Shown piece after piece: positions 46,918 to 62,545 of a DNA stretch of 64,000 nucleotides (within the stretch, counting starts at the first letter, position 1; each line of letters starts with the position of its first letter). The DNA comes from Glycomyces sp. (GTDB lineage Bacteria > Actinomycetota > Actinomycetes > Mycobacteriales > Micromonosporaceae), in contig DASTYG010000107.1 of assembly GCA_035765105.1 (NCBI GenBank), positions 16,504 to 80,503 of the forward strand. The letters run 5' to 3'. The notes under the pieces are model-generated. The model made no database searches. It saw only the letters and a program-made list of their open reading frames with translations, and had not been told where the DNA came from. A program made the position numbers and the translations under genes.

Positions 46918-47119
46918 GCGTGCGAACCGCAGGATTATCTGTGGCGCTTCGTACACCGGATGCGGTCGCGCCGAGAAGTGGCTCCGACTTTGGAGGAGCT
47001 TCCAGGTCGGATCGCCTGGTATTGCCACTTGTTCGTGCCGATGCGGTGCTCTTCGCGGCCAACGGAATATGGCATGCGGTAGGTATTATGGACTCCTGAA
47101 TTAAGCACGAGGAGTTGTC

Positions 47120-47533
47120 ATGTCTCAACCAGGCAACCCGTTCGCGGACGTCCTCAAAGAAACGCTGGAGCTGTCCAAGCAGGTCCAGGCCGGTCAGGAT
47201 GCCGAACCCGATGATGAGGAGCAGGTGGTCGAGCGCGCCGAAGGACGCATCCGCGTGACCGCGGGCGCCGGCGGCGAGATCGGCATCGCCCTCGATCCCA
47301 AGGCCATGCGCCTGGGCTCTGAGGAACTGGCGCAGGAACTCACCAGCGCGGTCAACGAGGCGCTGGCCTCCCTGAGAGAACAGCAGCTGAACGCGAAGAA
47401 CCTCGACCTGGACGCCATCAACGAGCAGGTCGCCGAGCTCCAGCAGAAGGCCAGCGCACAGCTGTCTTCGTTCATGGACGGCGTCCTCCGTGCGCACGCT
47501 GCCGCGGACCGCACCGAACCGGTCAAGGAGTAG
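47120..47533 (+). CDS. YbaB/EbfC-like protein (EspL-like accessory of T7SS-type toxin loci)
   Basis: AGGAG RBS. The core AEGRIRVTAGAGGEIGIALDPKAM...ELAQELTSAVNEA fits the YbaB fold pattern. Confidence 0.7.
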   Translation: MSQPGNPFADVLKETLELSKQVQAGQDAEPDDEEQVVERAEGRIRVTAGAGGEIGIALDPKAMRLGSEELAQELTSAVNEALASLREQQLNAKNLDLDAINEQVAELQQKASAQLSSFMDGVLRAHAAADRTEPVKE

Positions 47534-47536
47534 GCC

Positions 47537-47866
47537 GTGGCGGGTTCAGTGGAGATCGATCCGGCCGTCCTCGAGGAGGTCAAGACCAGCCTCAGCGCTG
47601 CGGGCAGTGAGTTCGCCGTCATCGCCGAGGACCTCGTCGCCACAATGGAGGGATTGGCCGAGGCCTACGGCTCCGACGAGGTCGGCGGTCTCATCATGGA
47701 GATCCACCAGGAGATCCTCATGGCCTTCCAGGAGTGCCTCCAGGACGCCGGGGCCGACATCGAGGACGTCGCCGCCACGCTCGGCGACGTCGGCGCGATC
47801 ACCCAGGAGATCGACGACGTCATCGCCTCGGAGTTCGAGCACCTCCTCGGGCAGCTGGGGGGATAG
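47537..47866 (+). CDS. EspC/DUF2580- or WXG100-like small helical protein
   Basis: 109-aa acidic helical-hairpin protein starting (GTG) 3 nt after the YbaB-like stop. This is the usual second gene of this cassette type. Confidence 0.6.
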   Translation: MAGSVEIDPAVLEEVKTSLSAAGSEFAVIAEDLVATMEGLAEAYGSDEVGGLIMEIHQEILMAFQECLQDAGADIEDVAATLGDVGAITQEIDDVIASEFEHLLGQLGG

Positions 47867-47868
47867 AC

Positions 47869-48363
47869 GTGGTCATCAACCTGCCTCCCGAGCTGGGAGA
47901 GATCCTGAACATCCTCGGCTTCGACTGGCCCATGTCCAATGAAGACCAGCTCTTCGAGATGGGCCAGGAGTGGATGAACGTCGCCGGCAGGATCGACGAG
48001 CAGCTCCAAGAGGCCGCCCAGAGCGCCCAGCGGGCCTGGGCCGAGAACATGGGCGAGAGCATCGACGCCTTTCAGCAGTGGTGGGAGGCCGAGGACTCAC
48101 CCGCTCAAGCGTTGTCGAAAGCGGCGGTGGGCGCGAACCTCGGCGGGGCCGCGCTGATGATCTGCGCGGGCATCGTCCTGGCGTTGAAGATCGCCGTCAT
48201 CGTCCAACTGGTGCTCTTGGCGATACAGATCGCGGCGGCGATCGCCGCCGCCGCGGCCACGTTCGGCATCGCCAGTGCGGCGCTGCCGGGGATATACGCG
48301 CTCGGACGCAAGATCCTGGCGGAGATCCTTCAAGAGGTCGTCATGCAGCTGGCGTTGGGATAG
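47869..48363 (+). CDS. Polymorphic-toxin N-terminal delivery module (WXG100-like domain plus 2 TM helices), ended by an in-frame TAG
   Basis: GTG 47869. VVINLPPELGEILNILGFDWPMSNEDQLFEMGQEW is the N-terminal pattern of actinobacterial T7SS-associated toxins. It is followed by hydrophobic helices and ends at TAG 48361-48363, in the same frame as the next ORF. Confidence 0.65.
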   Translation: MVINLPPELGEILNILGFDWPMSNEDQLFEMGQEWMNVAGRIDEQLQEAAQSAQRAWAENMGESIDAFQQWWEAEDSPAQALSKAAVGANLGGAALMICAGIVLALKIAVIVQLVLLAIQIAAAIAAAAATFGIASAALPGIYALGRKILAEILQEVVMQLALG

Positions 48364-48372
48364 GGGGCCGTC

Positions 48373-49014
48373 ATGGGAGTCTCGAAACGCCGCACGAGCA
48401 AAGCCACCAAGAGGATCACCAGACCCACGATCAACCAGCTGCTCAAGGGCCGCAAACTCACGTACAAGCCCAAGGGGCACGTCGACCGGCCCCGCTTCAA
48501 GAAGGTCACCACAGACGGCTTCACCGATGTGCCCAAGCCCTACAAGAAGAACGGCAAGTGGGTCCTTCACGTCAAGCGCCACGACGGCTGGAACAAGAAG
48601 GACTACCGCGCCAAGGTCGACTCGATGAAGCAGGCCGGCAAGGCCGGGAAGCTCAAGTACGTCAAGAACACGAAGGCGAAGCGCACGGGCGCCCAGGGCC
48701 AGAAGCGCGATCTCGAAGAGCGGAAGGCGGTCGCGGAGGCCACCCGGATCGAGGACAGAGGCAAGCCGGACAGCGCGCAGAAGTGGCTCGACGAGCGGTT
48801 GCGGACCCTGGACGCCCAGGAGGCCGACCATGACATCGAACTGCAGATCGACGGCAAGGACGAACTGGCGAACCTGAAGATGATCGACGCGGCCACCAAC
48901 CACGGCATGGGCGGCCAGCTGCGAAATCAGATCCTCAAAGCGATCGATGGCGGCATGAAACCCGGTGATCTCATCGAGATCAAGGAAGTCCCCGGCCTGC
49001 TCTCCAACAAGTAA
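48373..49014 (+). CDS. Lys-rich protein with a C-terminal HNH/His-Me-finger-like nuclease toxin motif
   Basis: EADHDIELQIDGKDELANLKMIDAATNHGMG fits DH-x8-G-x5-NL-x7-N of HNH folds. The N-terminal half is very basic. It is in frame with the upstream ORF, 3 codons after its TAG. Confidence 0.6.
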   Translation: MGVSKRRTSKATKRITRPTINQLLKGRKLTYKPKGHVDRPRFKKVTTDGFTDVPKPYKKNGKWVLHVKRHDGWNKKDYRAKVDSMKQAGKAGKLKYVKNTKAKRTGAQGQKRDLEERKAVAEATRIEDRGKPDSAQKWLDERLRTLDAQEADHDIELQIDGKDELANLKMIDAATNHGMGGQLRNQILKAIDGGMKPGDLIEIKEVPGLLSNK

Positions 49015-49051
49015 CGTATTGGCGGTATCCGGCTTCCGCTGAAAGGAAACG

Positions 49052-49699
49052 ATGAACACCGACTTCGGGCGGATCAGGGCGAAGGTCGATTACCTCCTCG
49101 CCCGCGACGACGTCGCCCTGCCCCCCAACGTGAGGGCTGAATGGGACCCTGAAGGGCTCGGCGGTCCGCTCGCCGACCAGGGCCGCGAACCGGCCGATCG
49201 CCTGCTCGACGCCCTCGCCGACCGCCACCTGGGCCAGCTGGTCTTCTTCGGGGAGGACGACCGCTACGAGCGGCTCGTGGACGAGTCGGAGACGGCTTGG
49301 GACGGCGGGCACGACTGGGTCTGCATCGGCGAGTCCGAACTCGCCACCACCACGGCCCTCCTCCTCCACACCAGCACCGGGGCCGTGGTCCTGTACGACT
49401 CCGACGCATGGGACTGGGAACTGAAGGACAATTTCATCCTCGTCAAGGACTCCCTCACCGCATTCGTCGACGAGGTCGCTCTGGGCACCGACTACCGCCG
49501 CCTGTACTACCAGAACTGGGCGGAGCTGGCCGCTGTCATGGAATCGGACGACCTCGAGTTTCCGGGTGTCTACAGGGACCCTTGGTACCATCTGCTCCGA
49601 GAAATGCAAGCGGACCTCTTCGGCGGGCAGGCCGTCGCAGGGAGCAGGCGGCGGGAGCTCCTCCGCCGGATCGAGGAACACCACGAGGACTGGGACTGA
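49052..49699 (+). CDS. SUKH-superfamily (SMI1/KNR4-like) immunity protein candidate
   Basis: Acidic 215-aa protein directly after the toxin. The pattern ...LLLHTSTGAVVLYDSD...VKDSLTAFVDEVALG resembles SUKH C-terminal motifs. Confidence 0.55.
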   Translation: MNTDFGRIRAKVDYLLARDDVALPPNVRAEWDPEGLGGPLADQGREPADRLLDALADRHLGQLVFFGEDDRYERLVDESETAWDGGHDWVCIGESELATTTALLLHTSTGAVVLYDSDAWDWELKDNFILVKDSLTAFVDEVALGTDYRRLYYQNWAELAAVMESDDLEFPGVYRDPWYHLLREMQADLFGGQAVAGSRRRELLRRIEEHHEDWD

Positions 49700-49740
49700 T
49701 CCCCGTCCGCGGTCCCGACGAGAGCTGAATCGAGGTTCAC

Positions 49741-50271
49741 ATGCCGACCCGTGAGGAATACCTGCAACTGTGGGGCGATGACAACACCGTCGCCGTCCCC
49801 TTGGACGAGTGGAAGTCCGAGTACTCGGCCCCGGCCGAGACCTGGCCGGAGGTGGACCTGCTCCCCGTCGACATGTCGGTGGCCTTCACCTCCTACCTCG
49901 ACGGCCAGTACGAGCTGTTCGCCCAGTTCGAGGTCCGTTATGAGGAGGAGGGCGACTCCCAGACGTTCATCGTCCTCGGCAAGCTGCCCCACACGGAGAC
50001 CTCGTTCTTCGTGCTGGACCCGGACACCGGCGTCATCCACCTCATGGACCCCTCGGACATGACCCTCGAGGAGGTGAACGCCTCCTACGCGGTGTTCGTG
50101 CGGTTCCTCTACCGCTTCGCGCAGTTCGTGGAGGCGGACGAGGGCGAGGAGACCCGCCCCGCCCGGGCCGAGGTCCTGGAGAAGGAGCTGAAGGCCGTGG
50201 ACGCCAGTGCGTTCGCACAGCGCGACAACTGGTGGAGCATGGTCATCCTGCTGCTGAAGGACGAGCTCTAG
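49741..50271 (+). CDS. SUKH-4-like immunity protein
   Basis: FIVLGKLP...FFVLDPDTGVIHLMD...VNASYAVFVRFLYRF; shares the VN(A/S)SY..FV.FL..F motif with the next ORF. Confidence 0.6.
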   Translation: MPTREEYLQLWGDDNTVAVPLDEWKSEYSAPAETWPEVDLLPVDMSVAFTSYLDGQYELFAQFEVRYEEEGDSQTFIVLGKLPHTETSFFVLDPDTGVIHLMDPSDMTLEEVNASYAVFVRFLYRFAQFVEADEGEETRPARAEVLEKELKAVDASAFAQRDNWWSMVILLLKDEL

Positions 50272-50274
50272 CCG

Positions 50275-50805
50275 ATGGAGCTGTCAGACAAGACCGCGTT
50301 CGTGTGGACGCCCGAGGACCTCATGGAGATGCCGCGCCGGGGCCTGGTCGACCTCGGCGTGCCGAACGACAGGCTTCCCGACGAGGACTGGGTCCCCCGG
50401 CGTCTGGCGGGGCTCTACGACGCGGACGCGATCCCCGAGCCGCTCGGCCCCTTCTCCGTGTTCCAGTTGCAGGCGGGAGCGACGACGATCGACACCAAGT
50501 TGGTGCTGCTCGGCGTCGTCCCCGGTGCCCCCGACCTCATGTACGTCATCGACTCCTCGACCGCTGAGGTATTGCAGTTCGACCGGCGCTCCAATGGCGT
50601 CCGCGGCGTGAACTCCTCATACCGGTGGTTCGTCGAGTTCCTCTGGCAGTTCGAGGCCGCGAAGAAGCAGCACGGTACGGACCGCGTCGCCGATGTCCTC
50701 AATCCGGCCCTCAAAGCGACGCTGGGCGGCGTGGACCCCTTCGCCTTCCAACCGGAGCAGTGGTGGCCCGGCGTCTGGAGCGAACTGGGCCGATCCCCCG
50801 AGTGA
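50275..50805 (+). CDS. SUKH-4-like immunity protein (paralog of the previous ORF)
   Basis: LVLLGVVP...MYVIDSSTAEVLQFD...VNSSYRWFVEFLWQF; starts 3 nt after the previous stop. Confidence 0.6.
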   Translation: MELSDKTAFVWTPEDLMEMPRRGLVDLGVPNDRLPDEDWVPRRLAGLYDADAIPEPLGPFSVFQLQAGATTIDTKLVLLGVVPGAPDLMYVIDSSTAEVLQFDRRSNGVRGVNSSYRWFVEFLWQFEAAKKQHGTDRVADVLNPALKATLGGVDPFAFQPEQWWPGVWSELGRSPE

Positions 50806-51197
50806 CATCCGGTTCCCCGACCCCTACGGCGTTCTGACCGGTGCTATGGAAAGCGGCGGTCCGATTCCGAATCGGTTCCAGTCTGAGCACGGTGTTTTCC
50901 ATGATGGAGTGACATGTCCAGGATCGGCGGCTTTGGTGGTCGTCCGTTCAGTCCCGGGTTCAGCCCGCTCAGGCGATGACCGCCGCAGGTGAACCCCGAT
51001 AGCCTGCAACTGGTAATTCATCGGTTCCGTTCGACAGGACGACCGGCGGAGGCCATCCGGCGCGGTGATCCGCCCGGCGGCGCCGTCGCCCGACTCCTCC
51101 CGCGGCCCTCCCCGGTCGTGTCCTGTCCGCAATGCGGCCGGTCCTTCGCGACCGTTTCGTGACCGACCACTGTGCCGTATGCCCAGGGAGACTCCTC

Positions 51198-52217
51198 ATG
51201 CCATTCAAGAAGCTATTGGTCCGGCTCGTTCCGGCGCTGGTAGCGGCGATCGTCATCGCCACCCCGACCGCGGCCCGCGCCGAGACGCGGACCGTCCCCC
51301 TCAACCCCGTCGACCTGTTCACCTACGCCGACGACTTCGGCGCCCAGTCCTGCGAGCACGTGGCGGACGGCCCCTTCGCCGACCGGGACGCGTGGGTCTT
51401 CGAGCTCTCGCGCTCGGCCGGCGGCGACGCCAGGTTCCAGTCGCTCCGCGCCGTCTATTTCGACTTCGGATGGTTCATCCCGATCCCGCGCTCGGTCGAG
51501 GCGACGATCATCGCCGACGGCGAGCTGGCCGTGGCCACCACCGGCCAGGGCTGGCAGCTCGCCGCCGGGACGGCCATGGTGAAGGACGCGAGCCGCCTGG
51601 CGACCTTCAAGCTCCTGCACACCTGCCCGGCGGGCGAGCCGTCCGGGCCGCCGGTCGACCCGACCGAACCGCCCGAGGAGACCACCGAGCCTCCGGCGAC
51701 CACCGGCCCGCCGACCGAGCCCACCGAGCCTCCAGAGGAGACGACGGCACCGCCGGTCGAGACCACCGAGCCGCCCGAGGAGACCACCGAACCCCCGGCC
51801 GAGACCACCGAGCCTCCAGAAGAGGCGACCTCCGAGCCACCGGCGACCACCGCCCCTCCCGAGGAGGAGACCACCGATCCGGCGGAGGCGACCACGGACC
51901 CAGCCGAGGAGACGACCGAACCCGAGGAGACGACCACCGAGCCCGGCGAGGCCACCACCGAACCCGAGGAGACCACCGAACCGGCCGAGGCGACCACGGA
52001 GCCGACCGACCCGGCCTCCTCCGACCCGGCCGAGGCGAGCGCTTCGCCCGCAGAGGACGCCGCCGCACCCGACGAGGCGAGCACGACCCCCGCCGGGCAC
52101 GCCGACGTCCTCCCGGTCACCGGCCTGACCCTCACCTACTTCACTCTGGCCGCAGCTGTGCTCATCGTGGGCGGTTTCGGCGCCCTGCTCCTGGCGAGGC
52201 GCCGCAACGCCGCATGA
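51198..52217 (+). CDS. LPXTG-anchored cell-wall surface protein with an acidic Thr/Glu/Pro repeat stalk
   Basis: Signal peptide MPFKKLLVRLVPALVAAIVIATPTAARA. Globular N-domain. About 120 aa of TEPPEETT-type repeats. LPVTG sorting motif, then a TM helix and RRRNAA tail. Confidence 0.85.
   Translation: MPFKKLLVRLVPALVAAIVIATPTAARAETRTVPLNPVDLFTYADDFGAQSCEHVADGPFADRDAWVFELSRSAGGDARFQSLRAVYFDFGWFIPIPRSVEATIIADGELAVATTGQGWQLAAGTAMVKDASRLATFKLLHTCPAGEPSGPPVDPTEPPEETTEPPATTGPPTEPTEPPEETTAPPVETTEPPEETTEPPAETTEPPEEATSEPPATTAPPEEETTDPAEATTDPAEETTEPEETTTEPGEATTEPEETTEPAEATTEPTDPASSDPAEASASPAEDAAAPDEASTTPAGHADVLPVTGLTLTYFTLAAAVLIVGGFGALLLARRRNAA
51652..52012 (+). repeat. Imperfect in-frame tandem repeats encoding (T/E)EPPEETT units
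   Basis: Reiterated gagaccaccgagcc(g/t)cc(c/a)ga(g/a)gag units are visible in the nucleotide sequence; they are coding, not CRISPR. The boundaries are approximate. Confidence 0.7.
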
Positions 52218-52294: not shown

Positions 52295-53929
52295 TCAGCC
52301 CTCGAAGACGAGGTCGTACAGGGCGACGCCCTGCGCCGCCAGATACTCGGCCTCGGCGTCCGATCCGTCGTCGATGCTGGTCAGCGGGGTGACCCACGCG
52401 ACCACGTCGTCCTTGTACCAGGCCATCTCGAGGTGTCCCGAGGGCTCGATGACGGCGCCCTTCGTCCAGGGCCGCTCAGTGGACTCCCCGTAGGGAAGCG
52501 GCGCGGGGGCGACGCCGTCGCAGCCTTCGAGATGGCAGACGCTCAGCGAGCCCCCGGTCGCATCGTTGTTGCGCCCCACCGTGGCCAACAGCGAGGTCGG
52601 CATTCCCCGGTCGTCGGCCACCATGATGGAGCACGAGGCGAACTCGCTGTCGTTGTCCTCGCCCTCCTCGTAGTGGACCAGGGACGAGCCCGGACCGACG
52701 AGGTCCAGCATGCCCTGTACGTCGACCGCGCCGCAGACCTCGGCGGGAATCGCCGTCGACGCCTCCTCGGCCTCGTCGGCGTCTGCGGCCTCCTCGCCGG
52801 TATCGTCCGACGGCCCGTCGCCGCCATCGGCGATGACCGGGTCCTCACCGGAGCCGGTATCGTCGCCGCCCGAGGCGGCCATGATCCATATCGGAACGAT
52901 GACGGCCAGGGCCGCCACCGCGACGATCGCCGCGATCGCGACGTTCCGCAAACCGGTCCGGGCCGCCCGCGGCGGCGCCGGCACGGGGTGCTGGAACGCC
53001 AGCGTCGGACCGTTGTCCACCAGCGTGGGCTGCGGCGACACCGCCAGCAGGCCCCCGATCGCGGCCTCCTGGCCTCCCGCATGCGCCCGCACGGCCTCCG
53101 GCGGCGCCGGGTCCGCCTCCCCGCCCTCCTCCAGGAGCCGCCGCAGTTCCGGCGGCGAGGGCCGCTCCGCCGGGTCCTTGGCCAGGCAGCGCTCGATGAC
53201 CTCCCGCAGCGAGGCGGGCACGCCCTCCAGGTCCGGCGGCGTGTGCACGATCCGGTAGAGCACCTGCGGTATCGACGGGCCCTCGAACGGGGCCCGCCCC
53301 GAGGCCGCCGTGGCGAGCAGGCACCCCAGACTGAACACGTCGGACTGCTCCGTCAACTCCTTCGCCTCCGCCTGCTCGGGCGACATGTACCCCGGCGACC
53401 CGATCACCCCGCCGGTCCGCGTCAGGGCCGTGCTCGTCGAGTAGTCCACGGCCCGCGAGACCCCGAAGTCCAACAGCTGTGCCCCGGCCGCCGACAGCAG
53501 CACGTTCGAGGGCTTGACGTCGCGGTGGATCAGTCCAGCACTGTGGACGTCGCCCAGCGCCGAGGCGAGGTCCATGCCGATGCTCCGCACGTACGCCTCC
53601 GGGAGCGGGCCGCTCGCCTCCACCGCCTCGACCAGCGTGGGACCGGGCACGAACGCCGTCGCCGACCACGGCTCGCCGGAGGCGGCGTCGGCGTCCACCA
53701 CCCGCACGGTGTGCGCCCCGGCGACCTTCCGCGCAGCCGCCACCTCCAGGGCGAAGCGCTGCCGGAAACCGGGATCGCCCGCCAAATGGGGGAGGATGCG
53801 CTTGACCGCCACGCGCCGCCCGTCGGGCCCGACGGCGAGATACACGCGGCCCATGCCGCCCTCGCCGAGCAGCGCGAGGACGCGGTAGCGCCCGACGAGA
53901 CACGGATCGTTCGGACCCAGAGGCAGCAT
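52295..53929 (-). CDS. Hanks-type Ser/Thr protein kinase with a TM helix and an extracellular sensor domain
   Basis: Motifs GEGGMGRVY, VAVKR, HRDVKPSNVLL, DFG and SPEQ, then a TM helix (VAIAAIVAVAALAVIVPIWIM) and a ~190-aa Cys-containing ectodomain. Confidence 0.9.
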   Translation of the reverse strand: MLPLGPNDPCLVGRYRVLALLGEGGMGRVYLAVGPDGRRVAVKRILPHLAGDPGFRQRFALEVAAARKVAGAHTVRVVDADAASGEPWSATAFVPGPTLVEAVEASGPLPEAYVRSIGMDLASALGDVHSAGLIHRDVKPSNVLLSAAGAQLLDFGVSRAVDYSTSTALTRTGGVIGSPGYMSPEQAEAKELTEQSDVFSLGCLLATAASGRAPFEGPSIPQVLYRIVHTPPDLEGVPASLREVIERCLAKDPAERPSPPELRRLLEEGGEADPAPPEAVRAHAGGQEAAIGGLLAVSPQPTLVDNGPTLAFQHPVPAPPRAARTGLRNVAIAAIVAVAALAVIVPIWIMAASGGDDTGSGEDPVIADGGDGPSDDTGEEAADADEAEEASTAIPAEVCGAVDVQGMLDLVGPGSSLVHYEEGEDNDSEFASCSIMVADDRGMPTSLLATVGRNNDATGGSLSVCHLEGCDGVAPAPLPYGESTERPWTKGAVIEPSGHLEMAWYKDDVVAWVTPLTSIDDGSDAEAEYLAAQGVALYDLVFEG

Positions 53930-54168
53930 GGAAGGCTCCTTCGCTTGCGGGACGGCGGCACCCGCGGCGCACCGCGCCGCAGGCCCCTACGGTGGCCCCG
54001 CCGATCCCGGGCCGGTCCCCGATCCGTCCCGCGCCCGCCGCGGCGACCGTGACCGCGCCGTTGCCTCAGGTAGCGGGCCGATCGTCGCGCCACCGGCGTT
54101 GATAATCTCGTACCGCGCCGTTGGGGGAGACGAACCGCTCACGAACACCGCTACCCGGGAGGCCCTTC

Positions 54169-57100
54169 ATGTCCGTCGAGCAGACCACCGACCGCGTCGG
54201 CGTCCCCTCGGTCGGCGACCGGGTGGAGGTCCGCGACTCCCGCTGGATCGTCGCCGACGTCGACGCCTCCGGTACCGACACCGTCGTGGAGCTGGGCAGC
54301 CTCGCCGACGACGCGTTCGGCGAGACCCTCCGCCTCGTCTGGGAACTCGAACCGGGCCGCCGTCTCCTGCCCGCCTCGGGCCTGCCCGAGGTCCGCCAGG
54401 GCGCCTTCGACAAGCCCGGCCAGCTCGCCGCCTTCCTCGACGCCATGCGCTGGTCCGCGCTCACCAGCGCCGACACCCGCTCCCTCCAGGCGCCCTTCCG
54501 CTCTGGCGCCGACATCAAGCTCTACCAGCTCGAACCGGTGTGGCGCTCCCTCTCCGCCCCCAGGGTCAACCAGCTGCTGGCCGATGACGTAGGTCTGGGG
54601 AAGACCGTCGAAGCCGGGCTCGTGGCCAGCGAGCTGATCCTGCGCCACCGCGCCGAACGGGTCATGATCGTCTGTCCCGCCGGGCTCACCACCAAATGGC
54701 AGAGCGAGATGTTCGATCTGTTCGGCCTGCGCTTCACCATCGTCAACGCCCAGACCTACACCGATCTGCGCCGCGAGCGCGGCAACGGCGCCAACCCCTT
54801 CGAGGTCTACCGGCACACCATCGTCTCGCTCCCGTGGCTGCGCGGCCCCAAGGCCGAGCGGCTCCTGTTCGGCGAGCTCCTGCGCGGCGCCGAAGACGCG
54901 GCGCGCCCGTTCTTCGATCTGCTCATCCTCGACGAGGCCCACCACATCGCCCCCGCCGCCCCGAAGCAGCGCTACGCGGTGGACTCCCAGCAGACCCGGA
55001 CCATGCGCGCCCTGGCCCGCCATTTCACGCACCGCCTGTTCCTGTCGGCCACCCCGCACAACGGCTACCCCGAGTCGTTCACCGCGCTGTTGGAGATCCT
55101 CGACCCGGCCCGCTTTGCCCGCGGCGTGCCGCCCTCCCCTGCGGCGCAGGAGGAAGTGGTCATCCGGCGGCTCAAGTCCTCGATCATCGGCTCCGACGGC
55201 CGCCCTGAGTTCCCCCGCCGCGTCGTCCGCGATCTGCCGCTCGACTACTCGGACGGCGAGCTCGCCGTGCACCGCCTGTTCAGCGAGTTCACCGAGGCCC
55301 GCCGCACCAGGCGCGCCAAGGGCAGAAGAGGCCGCGCCGCCGCCGACCTCGTGACGCTCCTGCTGAAGAAGCGCCTGCTGTCGAGCCCGCAGGCGTTCGC
55401 CAACACCTACGCCGCCTACGCCGGGGCCCGCCCCGCCTCGCCCGCGGCCGCCAGCGACGCCGTCCCCGGCTTCTTCGACGACTTCCTCGACGAGACCGCC
55501 GTCCTCGACGACGAGGAGCTCTACGAGTACGAAGAGGACGGCCTGCGCCGCTCGGCCGGCTACGAGGAGCGCCTCGACCCCGCCGAGCACGCCCTGCTCG
55601 CCCAGGTCGACGACTGGGCGCGGCAGCACCTGGCCGTCCCCGACACCAAGGCCGCCGCCCTCCTCGGATTCCTCACCGCCACGTGCAAGGCGGGCGGCAA
55701 GTGGGGACCGGACCGCGTGGTGGTCTTCACCGAGTACCGCGACACCCTCCACTGGCTCCACGAGCTCCTGGCCTCCCAGGGCTTCGGCGGCGACCGCGTG
55801 GCGCTCCTCCACGGCGGCATGGACGTCGATGACCGCGAGCAGATCCGCCTGGCCTTCCAGGCCGACCCGTCCGAGCACCCCCTGCGCGTCCTCCTCGCCA
55901 CCGACGCCGCGGGGGAGGGCATCGACCTCCAGAACCACTGCCACCGCCTCGTGAATTACGACATCCCGTTCAACCCCAACAAGCTCGAGCAGCGCGCCGG
56001 GCGCATCGACCGCTACGGCCAGCGCCACAGCCCCGAGATCTACAACTTCATTCCGGCCGACACCGCCCAGAACTCGGCCTTCAAGGGCGAGATCGAGTTC
56101 CTCGCCCGCGTGGCCGTCAAAGTGAGCCAGATGCACTCCGACCTCGGCTCGGTCAACCCCGTGCTCGCCGACGCGCTCCAGAAGCGCCTCACCGGCGACG
56201 CCTCCGTGGCCGATGTGGACGCCCTCGCCGACCGGGCCGCCGCCCGCGGCCGTAAGGCCGGGGACGTCAAGGCCGCCGCGAACGTCTCCGAACAGGTCGA
56301 ACGCCTCGGCGAGACCTACGACAACAGCGTGGCCGAACTCCACCTCTACCCCGAGCGCATCCGCCGCGTCGTGGACACCGCGCTGGACCTGGCCCACCAG
56401 ATGCCCCTCAAGCCCTCGGCCACCGGTCCCGCAGAGTTCGAGGTCCCGGTGATGACCGGCGAATGGGTCCGCACCACCGAGGGCCTGGTCACGCCGTTCG
56501 TTCCCGAAGGGGAGGAGCCGCGTCAGCGGCCGGTCACCTTCGACCCGCTCGTGGCGCAGGGCCGCGACGACGTGGTCCTGGCGCACCTCTCGCACCCGCT
56601 GGTGGACATGTCCGCGCGGCTCCTGAGGGCCGCCGCCGACTCCGACCGCGTGGACCTCCACCGCGTCACCGCAGTGGTCGGCCCCGACACCCTCGAAGAC
56701 GTGTTCGTCGCCGCCTACGCGAAGTACACGCTCACCGGCGCCGACTCGACCCGCCTGCACCAGGAGATCATGGCCGTGGGCGGCTGGCTCGACTCCCGCA
56801 CCGGCCGCTTCCGCCGCCTGGAGAACCTCACCCGCACCGCCGAGATCCTCGACGCCGCACTGGATCAGGGCAGGGAAGCCGGGCCGGGAGCCCGGCTCCG
56901 CCTCGCCGAACGCTGGACCGAGGCCGACCGGGGCCTGCGGGCCGCCCTCGAATGGCGCACCGCCGCCCGCAGCGAATCCCTCGAACGCCTGCTGGAACGC
57001 CGCGTCGCCGAGGAGCAGGACCGCATCCGCAGCGACTACGAGCAGTTCCGCGCCTCCCTCGAAGAGGCCGTCAGGGGCCGCAAGGCCGCCGAGGACGAAC

Positions 57101-57291
57101 TGGCCGGACTCGCCGAACTCGAACTCCAGCAGGCCCGCCGCGACGAGGGCCACTGGAACGAGCGCCTGGAGCAGATCGACGCCGAACGCGACCGCGAACT
57201 GGCCGCGGCCGCCGCCCGCTACGCAGGCCCCGAGGGGCACCGCACCCCACTCGCGATCGTCTGCGTCGTACCGGAAAGGGACAACCGTTGA
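54169..57291 (+). CDS. SNF2-family (SF2) helicase/ATPase, DrmD-like, with a long C-terminal extension
   Basis: GGGAGG RBS before ATG 54169. Motifs LLADDVGLGKT (I), LILDEAHH (II), LSATPHNG (III), TDAAGEGIDLQ (V) and QRAGRIDRYGQ (VI). About 400 aa of helical/coiled-coil tail follow motif VI. Confidence 0.9.
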   Translation: MSVEQTTDRVGVPSVGDRVEVRDSRWIVADVDASGTDTVVELGSLADDAFGETLRLVWELEPGRRLLPASGLPEVRQGAFDKPGQLAAFLDAMRWSALTSADTRSLQAPFRSGADIKLYQLEPVWRSLSAPRVNQLLADDVGLGKTVEAGLVASELILRHRAERVMIVCPAGLTTKWQSEMFDLFGLRFTIVNAQTYTDLRRERGNGANPFEVYRHTIVSLPWLRGPKAERLLFGELLRGAEDAARPFFDLLILDEAHHIAPAAPKQRYAVDSQQTRTMRALARHFTHRLFLSATPHNGYPESFTALLEILDPARFARGVPPSPAAQEEVVIRRLKSSIIGSDGRPEFPRRVVRDLPLDYSDGELAVHRLFSEFTEARRTRRAKGRRGRAAADLVTLLLKKRLLSSPQAFANTYAAYAGARPASPAAASDAVPGFFDDFLDETAVLDDEELYEYEEDGLRRSAGYEERLDPAEHALLAQVDDWARQHLAVPDTKAAALLGFLTATCKAGGKWGPDRVVVFTEYRDTLHWLHELLASQGFGGDRVALLHGGMDVDDREQIRLAFQADPSEHPLRVLLATDAAGEGIDLQNHCHRLVNYDIPFNPNKLEQRAGRIDRYGQRHSPEIYNFIPADTAQNSAFKGEIEFLARVAVKVSQMHSDLGSVNPVLADALQKRLTGDASVADVDALADRAAARGRKAGDVKAAANVSEQVERLGETYDNSVAELHLYPERIRRVVDTALDLAHQMPLKPSATGPAEFEVPVMTGEWVRTTEGLVTPFVPEGEEPRQRPVTFDPLVAQGRDDVVLAHLSHPLVDMSARLLRAAADSDRVDLHRVTAVVGPDTLEDVFVAAYAKYTLTGADSTRLHQEIMAVGGWLDSRTGRFRRLENLTRTAEILDAALDQGREAGPGARLRLAERWTEADRGLRAALEWRTAARSESLERLLERRVAEEQDRIRSDYEQFRASLEEAVRGRKAAEDELAGLAELELQQARRDEGHWNERLEQIDAERDRELAAAAARYAGPEGHRTPLAIVCVVPERDNR

Positions 57292-60200
57292 GCCGCCTCG
57301 CCCGCAACCCCCGCCACCGCGCCTCCAAGCCCGCCCGCACCGGAGCGGACCGCACCCGCGGACACCAGGACTGGATCGAGCTCATCGAGACCGACGGGCC
57401 GTGGCTGTCCCTCCCGGTGCTCACCGCCGCCTGGCCCGATCTCGACGCCGTCCCCGTCGAGCGGCGCCGGGCTCTGCGCGCCGCCCACGCCGAATGGATC
57501 GAGCGCCTGGACGCGGGGCGCCCCGGAGCCGAGAGCCCCGACGCGAACGCCCCTGGCTCCGGGGAGGGGGCCGACATCCCGGACGACGAGCGGCGCTCCC
57601 GGGCCTGGATCGAAAACCTCCTGGCGGACTTCCTGGACTGGACGCCTGTTCATCACCTTCGGTTCCCCGAAGGCGATGAACAATCGATCGACGGCATCGC
57701 TCCGGTCCACATCGGCCAGCACGATACGACCGTCGCCCCGAGCTTCGTCCTCCACGACGGCGACGAGCCGCGCGTCATCGGCCTGATCGTCCCGCCCGGC
57801 AACCACCCCGCCAAGCGCATGAGGGGCGAGACCTGGACCGCCAGCCCCATCGACCGGCTCCTGCGGCTGTGCACGGCCAACAAGACTGAACTGGGCATCG
57901 CCACCGACGGCCGCTTCCTCGCCCTCGTCTACGCCCCCGCAGGCGGGGCCGGGAACGGCGGTGCGAGCGCGTACGGCGTCTTCGACACCATGACCATCGC
58001 CGACGCCTCCGACCTGGTGGTCCTGCGCGCCCTGTTCAGCCTCCTGAACCGCCGCCGCTTCACCGACTACCCTCCTGAGCAGCAGCTCCCCGCGCTCTTC
58101 GCCCAGTCCGCCGAGAAGGAGGAGGAGCTCACCGAGACCCTCGGCGTCCAGGTCCGCCGCGCCGTCGAACTCTTGGTGGAGGCCATCGGCCGCGCCCACA
58201 AGGCCAAGAAGGCCCGCGACGGCCTCGGCATCACCACCGAGGCGAGCGACGGCACGCGGCAGCTCGTGGAGGCCGACGAGGTCTACCGGGGCGCGGTCAC
58301 GGTCATGATGCGCCTGGTCTTCCTCCTCTTCGCCGAGGAACGCCGCCTCCTGCCCACCGACAACCCGCTCTATGCCGAGTCCTACTCCGTGGCCGAGGCC
58401 GCCAAGCGCCTCCAGGCCCTCGCCGACGAGGACAGCGAGGCGCACCTGGAGCAGAGCCACCGGACGTGGCTGCGGCTGCTGGCCCTGTTCAACGCCGTCT
58501 ACCGTGGCGTGGACACCGCGGAACTGTCCATCCCGGCCTACGGCGGCTCCCTGTTCGACCCGGGCGCGTACCCGTGGCTCTCGGACGAGCGGACGCCGCT
58601 GGCCATCGACGACCGGACCGTCTACAACGTCCTCAAATCCATCACCACGGTGTGGATGAGCGCTGGTAGGCAGCGGACCCCGAAGTCTCTCAACGGCATC
58701 CAGTTGGCCGATCCCAAGCGCAGGCCGAGGGGCGAGTTCCGCACGCTCAACTTCGACCGGCTCGGAGTCGAGCAGATCGGCTACGTGTATGAAGGTCTGC
58801 TGGCCTGGGAGGGGCGCTGGTCGGACGAGGTCATCGTGGGGCTCATCGGCACGCAGAGCAAGGAGGCCGAGGTCCCGCTGCGGGAACTGGAGGAGATGCG
58901 CGAGTGGGCCGGAGGCGATGTGAAGGCCCTGGCCGCAGCGCTGCACCAGCGGTTCGAGAAGGACGAGAAGACCGGCATCGGCACGGCGAAGGCGATCGCC
59001 GACGCGCTGGCCGAACTCGACGCCGAGCAGCGGGAACGCGCCGAGCGGGACCTGTTGGCGGTCACCGGCAATGACCCGAAGCTGACCGAGAAGCTGCTGC
59101 CGTTTTACGGGATCATCAGGGCCGACCTGCGGGGACAGGCGACGGTGGTATTGCCCGAGACGCTGTACATGACCGAGTCGGCGCTGCGCGGGAACACCGG
59201 CGCGCACTACACGCCGAGGAAGCTCGCGGATGAAGTGGTCAAGGGCGCGCTTGAACCGTTGGTGTACGAACCGGGGCCGTTGCAGACGGCCGACGAGGAC
59301 GCGTGGCGGCTCAAGGGCAGTGAGGCGATCCTCGGGCTGAAGGTCGCCGACATCGCGATGGGCTCGGCGGCGTTCCTGGTGGCGGCGTGCCGTTTCCTGG
59401 CCGACAGGTTGTTGGAGGCATGGAAGGCCGAAGACGACCCGAGGGGAGCGGTCGCCGATACGGACGAGGAAGACGGCAACGCCGAGGACCCGAACCTGAT
59501 CGAGGCCCGCAGGCTCGTGATCGAGCATTGCCTGTACGGGGCCGACATCAACCCGGCTGCGGTCGAGATGGCCCGGTTGTCGCTGTGGCTGGTGTCCATG
59601 GACAAGGGACGACCGTTCACCTTCCTCGATGACCGGCTGGTGTGCGGAGACAGCCTGCTCGGGATTACCAGTGTTGAGCAACTGGAGTACATGCACCTGG
59701 ACCCGGCCGAGGGCCGGAAGCTGCATGAGGGAACGATCCTCGACTTCACGGCTCACGTGCGGGAACTGGTGGCGGAAGCCGCCGAGACCCGCAAGGCCAT
59801 CAACGAGATCGGCGATAAGAGCGCAGCTGACCAGGAGATGAAGCGCGAGCTGCTGGAGCGAGCGCGGGAACTGACCGAAGAGGCCGGGCGGTATGGGGAC
59901 CTGTTGGTGGGCGCTGGGCTCGCAGGAAACGCGAATGCTTGGCTGGTAGCAGCGGATCTCGGCAATGACCAGAGCGAGGAGGGACGGGAGAAGCTCGATA
60001 GGCAGGCGGCCCAATGGCTCAGGACTGACCAGCCTGCGGGGGCATTCGACCGAGAGCCAATCCACTGGCGGTTGGTCTTTCCGGAGGTCTTCGAGGTTGG
60101 GGGTTTTAACGCGATCGTCGGAAACCCGCCGTTCCTTGGTGGCAAGAAAATTAGTGGTAGTAGCGGTTCCGCTTATCGTGAGTTTCTAGTTGACTACCTT

Positions 60201-61723: not shown

Positions 61724-62545
61724 ATGAGCGCGAAGGCATTCCTCACCATCATCCAAATCGCACGGCTCCTCGTCCAGTACCGCAAGCGGGCCAAGCTGAC
61801 CCACAAGGCGGTCGCTGACAAGGTGCAGATGAGCACCTCGAAGATTCGCGATCTTGAACACGCTCGGTCTCCGCAAGTCAAGTGGGCAGACATGCTCGCG
61901 TTCGCCCGCGTCTACGGGCTCGATCCCGATGAGACCGAGAACCTCGTTCGGCTCGCCGAGGCCTCCGAGACCCCGGACCTCTTCCACTCCTTCAAGATCC
62001 CTTCGGTGTTCTTCACCTTCCTCCAGATGGAGCTGACCGCCTCCAAGATCATGATCTGCGAGTCCGAGCTGATCACCGGCCTGTTCCAGACCGAGGCGTA
62101 CATGGACGCCATCACGGACGACGATGCGCCCGACAGGAAGGGACCGGCAGGGGCCGCTGGGTTCCGGCTCGACCGACAGACCAACTTCATGGAGCGGGAC
62201 TGGCTGCCCGAGGTCGTCTACCTGACTTCGGAGGCAGCCCTGCGCCACCAGATCGGGGGACCGGAGGTGATGGCCGAGCAGCTGGAACACCTCAAGGAAC
62301 TTGACCGAGATTTCTCGCTGTTCAATTTCCTGGTGGTGCCTTACGCTGCGGGGACGTACCACTCGCTTGGGAGCTCGTACGAGATCTTCGAGTTCGAGGG
62401 CGGGGAGTTCCCCAAGACGGTCTACCTAGAATCGTTTGAAGGGGCTCGTTACCTGGAGGTACCGGAGACGATCGCCTCGTTCCAGAACGCCTTCGATGAG
62501 TCTGTCAAGAAGGCCATACCGATTAAGGATTTCCAACTGTTATGA
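61724..62545 (+). CDS. XRE-family HTH regulator with DUF5753 domain (WhiJ/AbaA-paralog, Scr1-type)
   Basis: HTH LRKRAKLTHKAVADKVQMSTSKIRDLEH followed by a DUF5753-like region (FLQMELTASKI..., ...VYLESFEGARYLE). The final Leu is a TTA codon overlapping the next gene's ATG. Confidence 0.8.
   Translation: MSAKAFLTIIQIARLLVQYRKRAKLTHKAVADKVQMSTSKIRDLEHARSPQVKWADMLAFARVYGLDPDETENLVRLAEASETPDLFHSFKIPSVFFTFLQMELTASKIMICESELITGLFQTEAYMDAITDDDAPDRKGPAGAAGFRLDRQTNFMERDWLPEVVYLTSEAALRHQIGGPEVMAEQLEHLKELDRDFSLFNFLVVPYAAGTYHSLGSSYEIFEFEGGEFPKTVYLESFEGARYLEVPETIASFQNAFDESVKKAIPIKDFQLL

What the first reader, a model, noticed from the sequence alone, without database searches (positions are those of the whole stretch)
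48361..48372. A single in-frame TAG separates the delivery domain from the toxin domain
Seen: ORF 47869-48363 and ORF 48373-49014 are in the same reading frame (48373 minus 47869 = 504 = 168 x 3). Only TAG plus three sense codons (GGG GCC GTC) lie between them. Read-through would give one ~381-aa protein, ...VVMQLALG-x-GAVMGVSKRR.... Established: in related loci the WXG100-like N-domain, the TM helices and the C-terminal toxin are normally a single polypeptide, because the N-domain is what targets the toxin for export. Inference: there are three options. (a) A recent nonsense mutation inactivated or uncoupled the toxin. (b) Low-level amber read-through or suppression doses the amount of exported toxin. 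(c) The split is genuine and the toxin is recruited non-covalently; an AGGGGG-like SD precedes ATG 48373.
Basis: seen in the sequence. Interest (0 to 1): 0.65.

Follow-up and report, generated by a model that had tools for sequence, protein, structure and literature searches.

The report
Ordinary stop between carrier and toxin genes
The in-frame TAG is an ordinary, conserved stop codon between two separate genes, a small WXG100-like membrane "carrier" and a separately encoded nuclease-type toxin, and this two-gene layout is the norm in hundreds of related actinobacterial loci rather than a broken or read-through fusion.

Summary
GTG47869..TAG48361-63 (164 aa, Pfam WXG100_2) and ATG48373..49014 (213 aa) share a frame, with 9 nt between them. 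The shared frame carries no signal.

- **Chance level:** 3 of the 6 gene junctions in this operon are in frame.
- **Same-toxin orthologues:** 11 lineages all keep a stop at the same codon (10 TAG, 1 TAA). All keep the toxin's own ATG 3-9 nt downstream. The spacer sequence is not conserved, and three lineages have a 4-nt spacer that breaks the frame.
- **Wider family:** the best 120 of 240 carrier homologues are all 162-165 aa. In 74 genomic loci only 18 junctions are in frame; the commonest layout is an 8-nt overlap (ATGGnTAG).
- **Downstream genes:** they encode swappable polymorphic toxins (EndoU, deaminases, NucA/NucB, Ntox30, Scabin-like, RHS). Most start with a similar short basic leader.
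- **Not an error:** four independent runs give identical sequence across the junction.

A recent nonsense mutation and functional amber read-through are therefore rejected. A genuine, ancient split of the fused WXG100_2-toxin architecture is supported; a fused form does exist in Streptomyces. The toxin core is a C-terminal polymorphic-toxin domain with an invariant DH..Q..G..N..N..G motif, distantly Ntox15/HNH-like. Non-covalent recruitment of the toxin by the carrier is inferred, not shown.

The parts
47120..47533 (+). YbaB/EbfC-like small protein (137 aa), first gene of the cassette; a candidate helper or chaperone
   Evidence: Pfam YbaB_DNA_bd E 6.9e-5, just below the family cut-off. A homologue lies at the same upstream position in 60 of 80 related loci.
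47537..47866 (+). 109-aa helical protein, weakly PE / DUF6507-like; a candidate small helical partner of the carrier
   Evidence: Sub-threshold Pfam hits to PE (E 0.02) and DUF6507 (E 0.055). It is conserved directly upstream of the carrier in the Glycomyces orthologues. tblastn detects it in 34 of 80 loci.
47869..48363 (+). Carrier gene: 164-aa WXG100_2 (CpnT-N-terminal-like) protein. It has an acidic helical N-domain (residues 1-85), a hydrophobic segment (about residues 85-142) and a C-terminal helix.
   Evidence: Pfam PF25547 E 1.5e-11. AF2 model pLDDT 78, all helical. Best Foldseek matches are EsxA/EsxB WXG100 structures with TMt 0.8-0.86. Net charge is -13 for residues 1-85, and Kyte-Doolittle windows above 1.6 start at residues 85-124. 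Homologues are uniformly 160-166 aa.
48361..48363 (+). TAG: the genuine, conserved stop codon of the carrier gene
   Evidence: A stop sits at the identical codon after ...LA[LM]G in 11 orthologous lineages: 10 TAG and 1 TAA. The sequence is identical in 4 independent runs.
48362..48372 (+). SD-like AGGGGG (48362-48367) plus a 5-nt spacing to the ATG. The 9-nt intergenic spacer is 48364-48372. This is a likely translational-coupling junction.
   Evidence: Read directly. Spacer length and sequence are not conserved in orthologues (3, 4, 6 or 9 nt). No + strand terminator-like site lies inside the operon.
48373..48477 (+). Basic leader of the toxin (about residues 1-35, net charge +12) with a short amphipathic helix (RPTINQLLKGRKL)
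   Evidence: Charge. Helix 18-24 in the AF2 model. Comparable basic leaders (median net charge +9) with a shared G-[KR]-G-[IV]-[FM]-[KR]-x-A-x-x-x-L-[KR]-[KR]-type motif precede unrelated toxin domains in most of 77 loci.
48475..49014 (+). Toxin core of the 213-aa protein (about residues 35-213): a polymorphic-toxin C-terminal domain and a predicted nuclease
   Evidence: The profile search found 149 relatives. The matched core (query about 35-195) sits at the extreme C-terminus of proteins of 740-2877 aa, and in other hits behind signal/TM anchors or a VENN pre-toxin motif. 8 of 50 relatives hit Pfam Ntox15, 3 hit HNH_5, 2 hit HNH, 3 hit Endonuclea_NS_2 and 1 hit PT-HINT. The window protein itself has no Pfam, PDB-sequence or fold hit.
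48826..48912 (+). Putative catalytic motif D152-H153 ... Q158 .. G161 ... N167 ... N176 ... G180 (ADHDIELQIDGKDELANLKMIDAATNHGMG)
   Evidence: These seven residues are invariant in 50 diverged homologues and in the 13 close ones. The HxxE/D spacing resembles the HxxD active site of Ntox15/Tde DNases (PMC10470768). The link to catalysis is an inference.
49052..49699 (+). 215-aa protein directly after the toxin; a candidate cognate immunity protein
   Evidence: No Pfam hit. It is found only in loci that carry the same toxin (3 of 80 loci, the Glycomyces orthologues).
49741..50805 (+). Two tandem SUKH-4 immunity-family genes (49741-50271 and 50275-50805)
   Evidence: Pfam SUKH-4 E 9.8e-18 and 2e-14. 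SUKH-4 homologues also follow the distantly related toxins in L070, L081 and L087.

Best explanation
The TAG at 48361-48363 is the normal stop codon of a stand-alone 164-aa WXG100_2 (CpnT-N-domain-like) membrane-associated protein. ATG 48373 is the normal start of a separate 213-aa toxin gene. The two genes belong to a seven-gene polymorphic-toxin cassette: YbaB-like, PE/DUF6507-like, WXG100_2 carrier, toxin, a 215-aa protein, and two SUKH-4 genes.

This is an old and widespread split version of the fused 'WXG100_2 - hydrophobic helices - toxin' architecture. It is not a recent break and not a recoding site. The shared reading frame is a by-product of very short spacers (3, 6 or 9 nt).

Shown: the split, the stop and the toxin start are conserved. 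The frame is not conserved. The downstream gene is a swappable toxin, in most loci with a similar basic leader.

Inferred: the toxin is translated by coupling to the carrier gene, using the SD-like G-run at the stop or overlapping start/stop codons as in ATGGnTAG. Its basic amphipathic leader (+12) then docks non-covalently on the acidic helical domain (-13) of the carrier, probably together with the two small upstream proteins. This would form a composite type VII (ESX)-type secretion substrate. The toxin is probably a DNase of the Ntox15/HNH-like kind, neutralised in the producer by the downstream immunity gene or genes.
For: 1. Toxin homologues: 13 of 13 are 211-216 aa and start at the same place.

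2. Carrier homologues: 31 of 31, and the best 120 of 240, are 160-166 aa. In 77 of 80 genomic loci from Glycomyces, Micromonospora, Actinomadura, Dactylosporangium, Lentzea, Asanoa and others, the ORF ends at about 160-167 codons.

3. Same-toxin junctions in 11 lineages: the stop is at the identical codon (10 TAG, 1 TAA) and the ATG is always present. Spacers are 9, 6, 3, 4, 3, 4, 3, 4, 3, 3 and 6 nt with unconserved sequence. The three 4-nt spacers put the toxin out of frame.

4. Across 74 loci: 18 in frame, 49 in +1, 7 in +2. Thirty-four have an 8-nt overlap, ATGGnTAG in most. The carrier stop is TAG in 33, TGA in 29 and TAA in 12. Close relatives with the same toxin alternate between 6-nt and 7-nt spacers.

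5. Downstream genes are diverse known toxin domains encoded as separate ORFs: EndoU, YwqJ and XOO_2897 deaminases, NucA/NucB, Endonuclea_NS_2, Ntox30, Ntox21, Scabin-like, NERD, and RHS+DUF6531. Carriers that are 71-83% identical precede unrelated toxins.

6. Most leaders are basic (median +9) and share a motif. The carrier N-domain has net charge -13 and a WXG100-like fold.

7. The toxin core is C-terminal in long polymorphic toxins. It has an invariant DH..Q..G..N..N..G motif and weak links to Ntox15 and HNH.

8. Four independent runs give identical sequence. TAG is a common stop locally.

9. A fused relative exists in Streptomyces, so the split and fused forms are homologous layouts.
Against: - Among junctions that do not overlap, in-frame spacers are over-represented: 18 of 32 in the wider family and 8 of 11 in the same-toxin family. 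I attribute this to shared ancestry, and to start and stop codons migrating in whole codons, but I did not test that with a phylogenetic model.
- No protein-level data exist, so trace read-through producing a 41-kDa species cannot be excluded.
- No ESX/T7SS core genes lie in the window near the cassette, so the export route is assumed from family resemblance.
- The AF2 model of the toxin is poor at the motif (pLDDT below 50 for residues 151-177). The window protein itself matches no nuclease family.
Confidence: 0.85

Rival explanations
1. Functional, low-level amber read-through (or suppression) of TAG 48361 produces a small amount of a 381-aa carrier-toxin fusion, and that fusion is the exported form.
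For: The two ORFs are in frame in the window and in 8 of 11 same-toxin lineages. TAG is the stop in 10 of those 11. A fused architecture exists in distant relatives, so a fusion would be topologically plausible.
Against: - Three same-toxin lineages have 4-nt spacers. Read-through there yields 33-200 residues of out-of-frame sequence.
- One orthologue uses TAA.
- In the wider family 56 of 74 junctions are out of frame, including 42 with overlapping start and stop, and the stops are a mix of TAG, TGA and TAA.
- The spacer codons are not conserved, whereas the toxin's ATG and an SD-like G-run are.
- TAG ends 24 of 69 local ORFs and 4 of the 7 cassette genes, so an efficient suppressor would be costly.
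- The window holds no tRNA and no Rfam element.
Confidence: 0.03
2. A recent nonsense mutation, or a sequencing error, split a formerly single carrier-toxin gene, inactivating or uncoupling the toxin.
For: The ORFs are in frame with only three sense codons between them. Fused WXG100_2-toxin proteins exist in Streptomyces.
Against: - The stop lies at the same codon in every orthologue and in other genera.
- All carrier homologues are about 164 aa and all toxin homologues about 213 aa.
- Both ORFs keep high GC3 and conserved residues.
- Four independent runs give identical sequence.
- The only apparent 'fusion' among the 80 loci (L045, 322 aa) looks like a frameshifted MAG sequence.
Confidence: 0.01
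3. The split is genuine, but the 164-aa protein is not a cargo-binding carrier. It would act independently, for example as a membrane pore or holin-like release factor, or as a generic secretion-apparatus accessory. The toxin's basic leader would then serve another purpose, such as nucleic-acid binding or entry into the target cell.
For: The carrier has a long hydrophobic segment (about residues 85-142). UniRef names for family members in the search output read 'Outer membrane channel protein CpnT-like N-terminal domain'. No interaction evidence was obtained. Basic N-terminal regions are also expected in DNA- or RNA-targeting toxins.
Against: - Tight translational coupling (an 8-nt overlap in 34 of 74 loci) suggests the two proteins are made in fixed proportion.
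- The same type of leader precedes enzymatically unrelated toxins, including an ADP-ribosyltransferase-like domain and RHS proteins, so it does not track the toxin's substrate.
- Carrier and leader have complementary charges.
- In fused relatives the same N-domain is covalently attached to the toxin.
Confidence: 0.2

Closest known systems
Fused WXG100_2 (CpnT-N-terminal-like) polymorphic toxins. Examples: the Streptomyces sp. NBC_00690 plasmid protein WP_329028363.1 (505 aa), and M. tuberculosis CpnT (Rv3903c; from my own knowledge, and as named by UniRef).
   Same: Both have the same N-terminal domain (PF25547, E 9.2e-12 in the Streptomyces protein; 29% identity over 111 residues with the window carrier). 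Both continue into similar hydrophobic helices. Both have a C-terminal toxin followed by SUKH-4 immunity.
   Different: Here the polypeptide ends after the hydrophobic segment and one further helix. The toxin is a separate gene with its own ATG and a short basic leader. This split form is uniform across the 240 closest homologues, of which the best 120 were listed.
T7SS toxins exported with separately encoded small WXG100-like partners: LXG toxins with Lap1/Lap2 (PMC9600955, PMC10801868), S. aureus EsaD with EsxB/C/D (PMC10653861), M. abscessus EatA with TapA1/TapA2 (bioRxiv 10.64898/2026.08.24.746431), and mycobacteriophage PEST cassettes (PMC10654092).
   Same: Small helical WXG100-type proteins are encoded next to a polymorphic toxin and its immunity gene. 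In those systems the proteins assemble non-covalently into the secretion substrate (abstracts). That is the mechanism proposed here.
   Different: In those systems the toxin keeps a long helical N-terminal (LXG-like or WXG-like) domain of its own, and the partners are soluble. Here the toxin has only a basic leader of about 35-45 aa, and the WXG100-like partner carries a hydrophobic, membrane-type segment. No interaction or secretion data exist for this family.
Ntox15 / Tde type VI DNase effectors with an HxxD active site (PMC4096383, PMC10470768), and HNH/beta-beta-alpha-Me nuclease toxins
   Same: The domain is a C-terminal polymorphic-toxin module with an invariant His-x-x-Asp/Glu and downstream Asn residues. 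8 of 50 relatives reach Pfam Ntox15 (best E 1.9e-5), and a few reach HNH, HNH_5 or Endonuclea_NS_2.
   Different: The window protein itself matches no Pfam family, no PDB sequence and no PDB fold. Membership is therefore only suggested, and nuclease activity is untested.
Programmed stop-codon read-through or suppression (recoding)
   Same: A single in-frame stop lies between two coding regions whose fusion would make sense.
   Different: Neither the frame, the stop identity nor the spacer is conserved. The downstream ORF has its own conserved start. The window holds no suppressor tRNA and no known recoding RNA element.

Membership tests
Pfam WXG100_2 (PF25547, CpnT-like N-terminal domain): carrier 47869-48363 | Significant match to the family HMM above the gathering score | tested here: met
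   E 1.5e-11, 44.9 bits against a cut-off of 27, residues 17-138. All homologues carry precomputed PF25547.
WXG100 superfamily fold (EsxA/EsxB-like helical hairpin) | Helix-turn-helix hairpin that superposes on solved WXG100 proteins | tested here: met
   AF2 pLDDT 78. The top Foldseek hits are EsxA/EsxB structures (3zbh, 3o9o, 2vs0, 3gvm) with TMt 0.80-0.86 and rmsd 1.4-2.2 A over about 90 residues. E-values are weak (0.05-1).
Type VII (ESX) secretion substrate | Secretion depends on EccC/ESX, with a canonical WxG plus YxxxD/E export signal and linkage to an ESX locus | not testable with these tools
   Among the genes near the cassette that were scanned, none is an ESX core gene. I saw no canonical YxxxD/E by eye in the carrier C-terminus. 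No secretion data are available.
   A stop is conserved at codon 165 in all orthologues, and the carrier is about 164 aa in the best 120 of 240 homologues and in 77 of 80 loci.
Programmed read-through / recoding site | Same-frame relation and stop context conserved among orthologues, with no independent start needed for the downstream ORF | tested here: not met
   3 of 11 same-toxin lineages and 56 of 74 loci are out of frame. The stop varies between TAG, TAA and TGA. The ATG is always conserved.
Programmed read-through / recoding site | An amber suppressor tRNA is present in the genome | not testable with these tools
   The 64-kb window holds no tRNA. The rest of the genome is not available.
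Polymorphic toxin system (Zhang/Aravind sense) | A toxin domain at the C-terminal end, found behind different N-terminal trafficking regions, followed by immunity genes, with cassette-like swapping | tested here: met
   The core is C-terminal in proteins of 740-2877 aa, and also sits behind TM anchors or a VENN motif. PT-HINT occurs in one relative. SUKH-4 genes lie downstream. Carriers 71-83% identical sit next to unrelated toxins.
Ntox15 (PF15604) / HNH nuclease toxins: 213-aa protein | Match to the family HMM, with the HxxD (Ntox15) or H-N-H catalytic residues | tested here: inconclusive
   The window protein has no Pfam hit. 8 of 50 relatives hit Ntox15 (best E 1.9e-5), 3 hit HNH_5 and 2 hit HNH. 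D152, H153, N167 and N176 are invariant. The AF2 motif region has low confidence and gives no fold hit.
SUKH-4 immunity proteins (49741-50271, 50275-50805) | Match to PF14435 above the gathering score | tested here: met
   E 9.8e-18 and 2e-14.

The most novel reading that the evidence does not exclude
The roughly 164-aa WXG100_2 proteins with a hydrophobic segment may be generic, exchangeable carriers. They would recruit separately encoded polymorphic toxins, from 130-aa nucleases to 1,260-aa RHS proteins, through a basic amphipathic leader of about 20 aa (G-K/R-G-I/V-F/M-K/R-x-A-x-x-x-L-K/R-K/R). That would amount to a 'carrier plus leader-tagged cargo' export code for ESX-type secretion across Micromonosporales, Glycomycetales, Streptosporangiales and Pseudonocardiales. 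I found no description of it in the papers searched.
Probability: 0.4. Interest if true: 0.6.

Novelty: new variant of a known kind. Interest (0 to 1): 0.3.

Why it matters
For the finding as written, nothing unusual is happening at the TAG. There is no recoding, no suppression and no fresh pseudogene, so it should not be followed up as a read-through candidate.

The comparison does reveal something useful for annotation and for type VII secretion biology. A large, length-invariant family of stand-alone WXG100_2 proteins is tightly coupled, often by an 8-nt overlap, to separately encoded toxins that are swappable and that in most loci carry a similar basic leader.

If the leader-carrier pairing is real, it would give a simple sequence rule for finding ESX-type antibacterial toxins in actinomycete genomes. 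It would also offer a handle for testing how small toxins that lack an LXG or WXG domain of their own are targeted for export. Finally, it flags an uncharacterised, probably DNase-type toxin domain that is also used by long polymorphic toxins elsewhere.

Tried and rejected
- **Sequencing error:** rejected. Four independent runs are identical over the junction.
- **Suppressor tRNA or recoding RNA in the window:** none found (ARAGORN; Rfam). The whole genome could not be scanned.
- **Co-folding carrier and toxin as a read-through fusion:** No interaction model was obtained.
- **Identity of the 213-aa protein:** Pfam, NCBIfam and PADLOC gave nothing. PDB sequence profiles gave only weak, probably compositional hits: uL23 at E 0.005, T4 lysozyme at 0.11 and the McrA HNH domain at 0.84. 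Foldseek on the AF2 model gave no hit below E 3. Only the family-wide Pfam scan gave a lead (Ntox15/HNH).
- **Pfam on ten hits from that search (eight of 414-1166 aa, two of about 270 aa) that carry the toxin core:** no N-terminal trafficking domain was recognised.
- **L045, the one 322-aa 'fused' carrier among 80 loci:** its translation runs from the carrier frame into the toxin frame with degraded sequence. I read it as a frameshifted MAG, not a natural fusion.
- **Phage and plasmid searches with the carrier:** no phage hit. The two Streptomyces replicon hits were both to fused or longer forms.
- **Literature:** no paper in the library mentions DUF6507 or PF25547.
- **First downstream-gene caller:** my first version chose the longest ORF and was misled by spurious high-GC ORFs. 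I replaced it with a GC3-based frame choice.
Full report
**1. Observation**

The sequence is as described. GTG 47869 opens a 164-codon ORF that ends ...CTG GCG TTG GGA TAG (48361-48363). Then come GGG GCC GTC and ATG 48373, which opens a 213-codon ORF ending TAA 49014. The offset is 504 nt (168 codons), so the ORFs share a frame, and a read-through product would be 381 aa. AGGGGG (48362-48367) lies 5 nt before the ATG.

Logan contigs from four independent runs (one isolate-type, one soil metagenome, two compost metagenomes) are identical to the window across 48100-48700. The TAG is therefore not a sequencing error.

The same-frame relation is unremarkable. The prior is 1/3, and within this operon 3 of the 6 adjacent gene pairs are in frame (47120->47537, 47869->48373, 49741->50275; arithmetic). 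TAG is a routine stop here. It ends 24 of 69 high-GC3 ORFs in the window and 4 of the 7 cassette genes (for six genes, for the carrier gene).

**2. What the genes are**

Pfam gives the following:
- 47120-47533: YbaB-like, just below the family cut-off.
- 47537-47866: weak PE/DUF6507 similarity.
- 47869-48363: WXG100_2 (PF25547, E 1.5e-11).
- 48373-49014: no family.
- 49052-49699: no family.
- 49741-50271 and 50275-50805: SUKH-4 immunity proteins.

The cassette has 64-66% GC against 70-75% in the flanks. In orthologues it sits between different neighbours, as expected of a mobile toxin cassette. No + strand terminator-like site lies inside it.

The carrier model is all helical (pLDDT 78). Its best structural matches are EsxA/EsxB WXG100 proteins, with TMt 0.80-0.86. 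Residues 1-85 have net charge -13, and residues about 85-142 are strongly hydrophobic.

**3. Orthologues of the same toxin**

All 13 homologues of the 213-aa protein are 211-216 aa and begin at the same position. I read the junction in 11 lineages:
- The carrier always ends ...LA[LM]G (once ...GA, once ...MA) followed by a stop at the same codon: 10 TAG and 1 TAA.
- The toxin always starts with its own ATG 3-9 nt later.
- The spacers are ggggccgtc, gacgcg, ccg, cggc, gcc, cgca, acc, ggcc, gcc, gcc and gttgtc, so neither length nor sequence is conserved.
- Three lineages (Glycomyces sp. NPDC047369, L088, L090) have 4-nt spacers. Read-through there would add 33-200 residues of out-of-frame sequence rather than the toxin.

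A stop-to-stop change (TAG to TAA in L090) and a conserved ATG are what selection for two separate products predicts. A recent nonsense mutation or an obligatory fusion would predict neither.

**4. The wider family**

The carrier's homologues are strikingly uniform in length. All 31 found with the single sequence are 160-166 aa, and the best 120 of 240 found with a profile are 162-165 aa. They come from Glycomyces, Micromonospora, Actinomadura, Dactylosporangium, Thermomonospora, Asanoa and others.

In 80 genomic loci from species-representative genomes, 77 carrier ORFs stop about 160-167 codons after the start of the match. The exceptions are L037 (a 161-codon carrier with no convincing downstream gene), a truncated 144-codon ORF (L067), and L045. 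L045 is a 322-codon ORF whose translation slides from the carrier frame into the toxin frame, so I read it as a frameshifted MAG.

For 74 loci with a confidently called downstream gene:
- The junction is in frame in 18, in +1 in 49 and in +2 in 7.
- 34 share an 8-nt overlap, ATGGnTAG in most; others overlap by 1, 4, 11 or 20 nt.
- The carrier stop is TAG in 33, TGA in 29 and TAA in 12.
- Close relatives with the same toxin alternate between 6-nt (in frame) and 7-nt (out of frame) spacers.

Among junctions that do not overlap, 3n spacers are over-represented: 18 of 32 here, and 8 of 11 in the same-toxin set. I attribute this to inheritance of a short ancestral spacer, and to the fact that starts and stops migrate by point mutation in whole codons. 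I did not test that with a tree-aware model, so I list it as the main point against my reading.

**5. The downstream gene is the cargo**

Representative downstream proteins from other loci match known toxin domains: EndoU nuclease, YwqJ-like and XOO_2897-like deaminases, NucA/NucB, Endonuclea_NS_2, Ntox30, Ntox21, Scabin-like ADP-ribosyltransferase, NERD, and 1,214-1,267-aa RHS proteins with DUF6531.

Carriers that are 71-83% identical can precede unrelated toxins. The cargo is therefore swapped behind a constant carrier, as in polymorphic toxin systems.

In most loci the cargo proteins begin with a basic, Gly/Ala-rich leader; a few start with a neutral or hydrophobic N-terminus, possibly a mis-called start. 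The median net charge of the first 35 residues is +9 over 77 loci, and +12 in the window protein. The leader contains a short amphipathic helix of the type G-[KR]-G-[IV]-[FM]-[KR]-x-A-x-x-x-L-[KR]-[KR], which in the window protein is ...RITRPTINQLLKGRKL. The window toxin has no hydrophobic segment, and so no Sec- or Tat-type signal.

The YbaB-like gene lies upstream in 60 of 80 loci and the 109-aa gene in at least 34 of 80.

**6. The toxin**

An exhaustive profile search found 149 relatives. The matched core (query about 35-195) lies at the extreme C-terminus of proteins of 740, 813, 933, 994, 1033, 1166 and 2877 aa. In other hits it lies behind N-terminal TM anchors, and in one case after an ...AVENNF pre-toxin-type motif.

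Fifty diverged homologues keep D152, H153, Q158, G161, N167, N176 and G180 invariant. Scanned individually, 8 hit Pfam Ntox15 (best E 1.9e-5), 3 hit HNH_5, 2 hit HNH, 3 hit Endonuclea_NS_2 and 1 hit PT-HINT. Ntox15 is the Tde family of Mg-dependent DNases with an HxxD active site (PMC4096383; PMC10470768). The window motif is H153-D-I-E156.

The window protein itself has no Pfam, PDB-sequence or fold hit. Its AF2 model is weak exactly at the motif. 'Predicted nuclease, distantly Ntox15/HNH-like' is therefore as far as the evidence goes.

The 215-aa protein downstream occurs only with this toxin, in 3 of 80 loci. SUKH-4 homologues also follow the distantly related toxins in L070, L081 and L087. 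Which of these is the cognate immunity protein remains open.

**7. Relation to the fused architecture**

On a Streptomyces sp. NBC_00690 linear plasmid, a single 505-aa protein carries WXG100_2 (residues 11-146), similar hydrophobic helices, a linker and an XOO_2897 deaminase (residues 403-489). It is followed by a SUKH-4 gene. The same deaminase family occurs as a separate gene behind stand-alone carriers (L032, L082). Split and fused forms are thus homologous layouts. The split is old and is the rule in this protein's own family.

**8. Mechanism**

Shown: there are two genes. The stop and the start are conserved. The frame is not conserved. The cargo is swappable and in most loci carries a similar leader.

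Inferred: the toxin is translated by coupling to the carrier gene, using overlapping start/stop codons or the G-rich SD formed by the last Gly codon plus the stop. The basic leader then docks non-covalently on the acidic WXG100-like domain, probably with the two small upstream proteins. Export would be by an ESX-type system, by analogy with LXG-Lap, EsaD-EsxBCD, EatA-TapA1/2 and CpnT-EsxE/F (CpnT from my own knowledge).

I could not model the complex. No ESX genes lie near the cassette in the window.

**9. Verdict**

The TAG itself is ordinary.

The underlying two-gene carrier/cargo family is a split variant of a known kind of toxin system. I found no description of it in the literature available here. 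Interest for the finding as posed is low. The carrier-leader hypothesis is moderately interesting and can be tested directly.

Noticed in passing
window 54121-61583 (+): This looks like a DISARM-type defence module. A DrmD SNF2-family helicase (54121-57291, PADLOC DrmD E 0, also matching DrmA) is followed by a protein of about 1,430 aa that matches DrmMI and type IIG methylase-restriction enzymes (about 57300-61583; Pfam Eco57I, MmeI_Mtase, MmeI_TRD). GC falls to 50% around 60-61 kb. An HTH_31+DUF5753 regulator follows at 61724-62545.
   Followed up: partly
window 47000-51000, compared with the flanks: The toxin cassette has 64-66% GC against 70-75% on both sides. Orthologous cassettes sit between unrelated neighbours (GntR/MFS, PAD/HisKA_3, DUF5753). 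This suggests a horizontally mobile block.
   Followed up: partly
L021, L024-L026, L029, L030, L033, L038, L044 and others (34 of 74 loci), at the carrier/toxin junction: The carrier stop and the toxin start overlap by 8 nt, as ATGGnTAG/TAA/TGA in most of these loci. The carrier ends ...(N/D)G* and the toxin begins M-(A/V/G/P)-(R/K). This looks like the commonest, possibly ancestral, coupling arrangement.
   Followed up: partly
First ~45 residues of the genes downstream of the carrier in 40 representative loci: Enzymatically unrelated toxins share a leader: MxR/K, a Gly/basic run, then an amphipathic helix G-[KR]-G-[IV]-[FM]-[KR]-x-A-x-x-x-L-[KR]-[KR], then more basic residues and prolines. 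It could be a recruitment signal. I did not test it statistically.
   Followed up: partly
L031, L033, L065, L085 (Actinomadura and Streptosporangiaceae): The gene coupled to the 164-aa carrier is an RHS-repeat protein of 1,214-1,267 aa with DUF6531 and a C-terminal toxin tip. The same small carrier is therefore paired with very large cargo as well.
   Followed up: no
window 49052-49699, compared with 49741-50805; L070, L081, L087: It is unclear which protein is the cognate immunity. The 215-aa protein occurs only with this exact toxin in Glycomyces. SUKH-4 proteins also accompany the distantly related toxins in Micromonospora and Actinomadura, where an unexamined ORF of about 170 aa lies between the toxin and SUKH-4.
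   Followed up: no
L027, L049, L070, L071: The proteins called downstream of the carrier start with a hydrophobic, TM-like stretch before the basic leader motif (for example ...LLLLFLVLRRYQAP...RGVFKAAASFIRWSRRHGP). Either the start is called too early or this is a membrane-anchored cargo variant.
   Followed up: no
L045 5001-5969 (MAG MFD04935.bin.2.95): This is the only apparent carrier-toxin 'fusion' (322 aa). It switches from the carrier frame into the EndoU toxin frame, and the sequence degrades towards the end. It is probably an assembly indel or a pseudogene.
   Followed up: partly
window 48373-48760 (toxin residues ~15-128): The toxin-family profile gives a weak match to eukaryotic ribosomal protein uL23/L23a (E 0.005-0.1). 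Both are very lysine- and arginine-rich, so this is most likely compositional.
   Followed up: no
window 51132-52217 (+): Directly after the cassette lies an LPXTG cell-wall-anchored protein with a long acidic Thr/Glu/Pro repeat region (TEPPEETT...). A Ser/Thr protein kinase is encoded on the opposite strand at 52295-53929.
   Followed up: no
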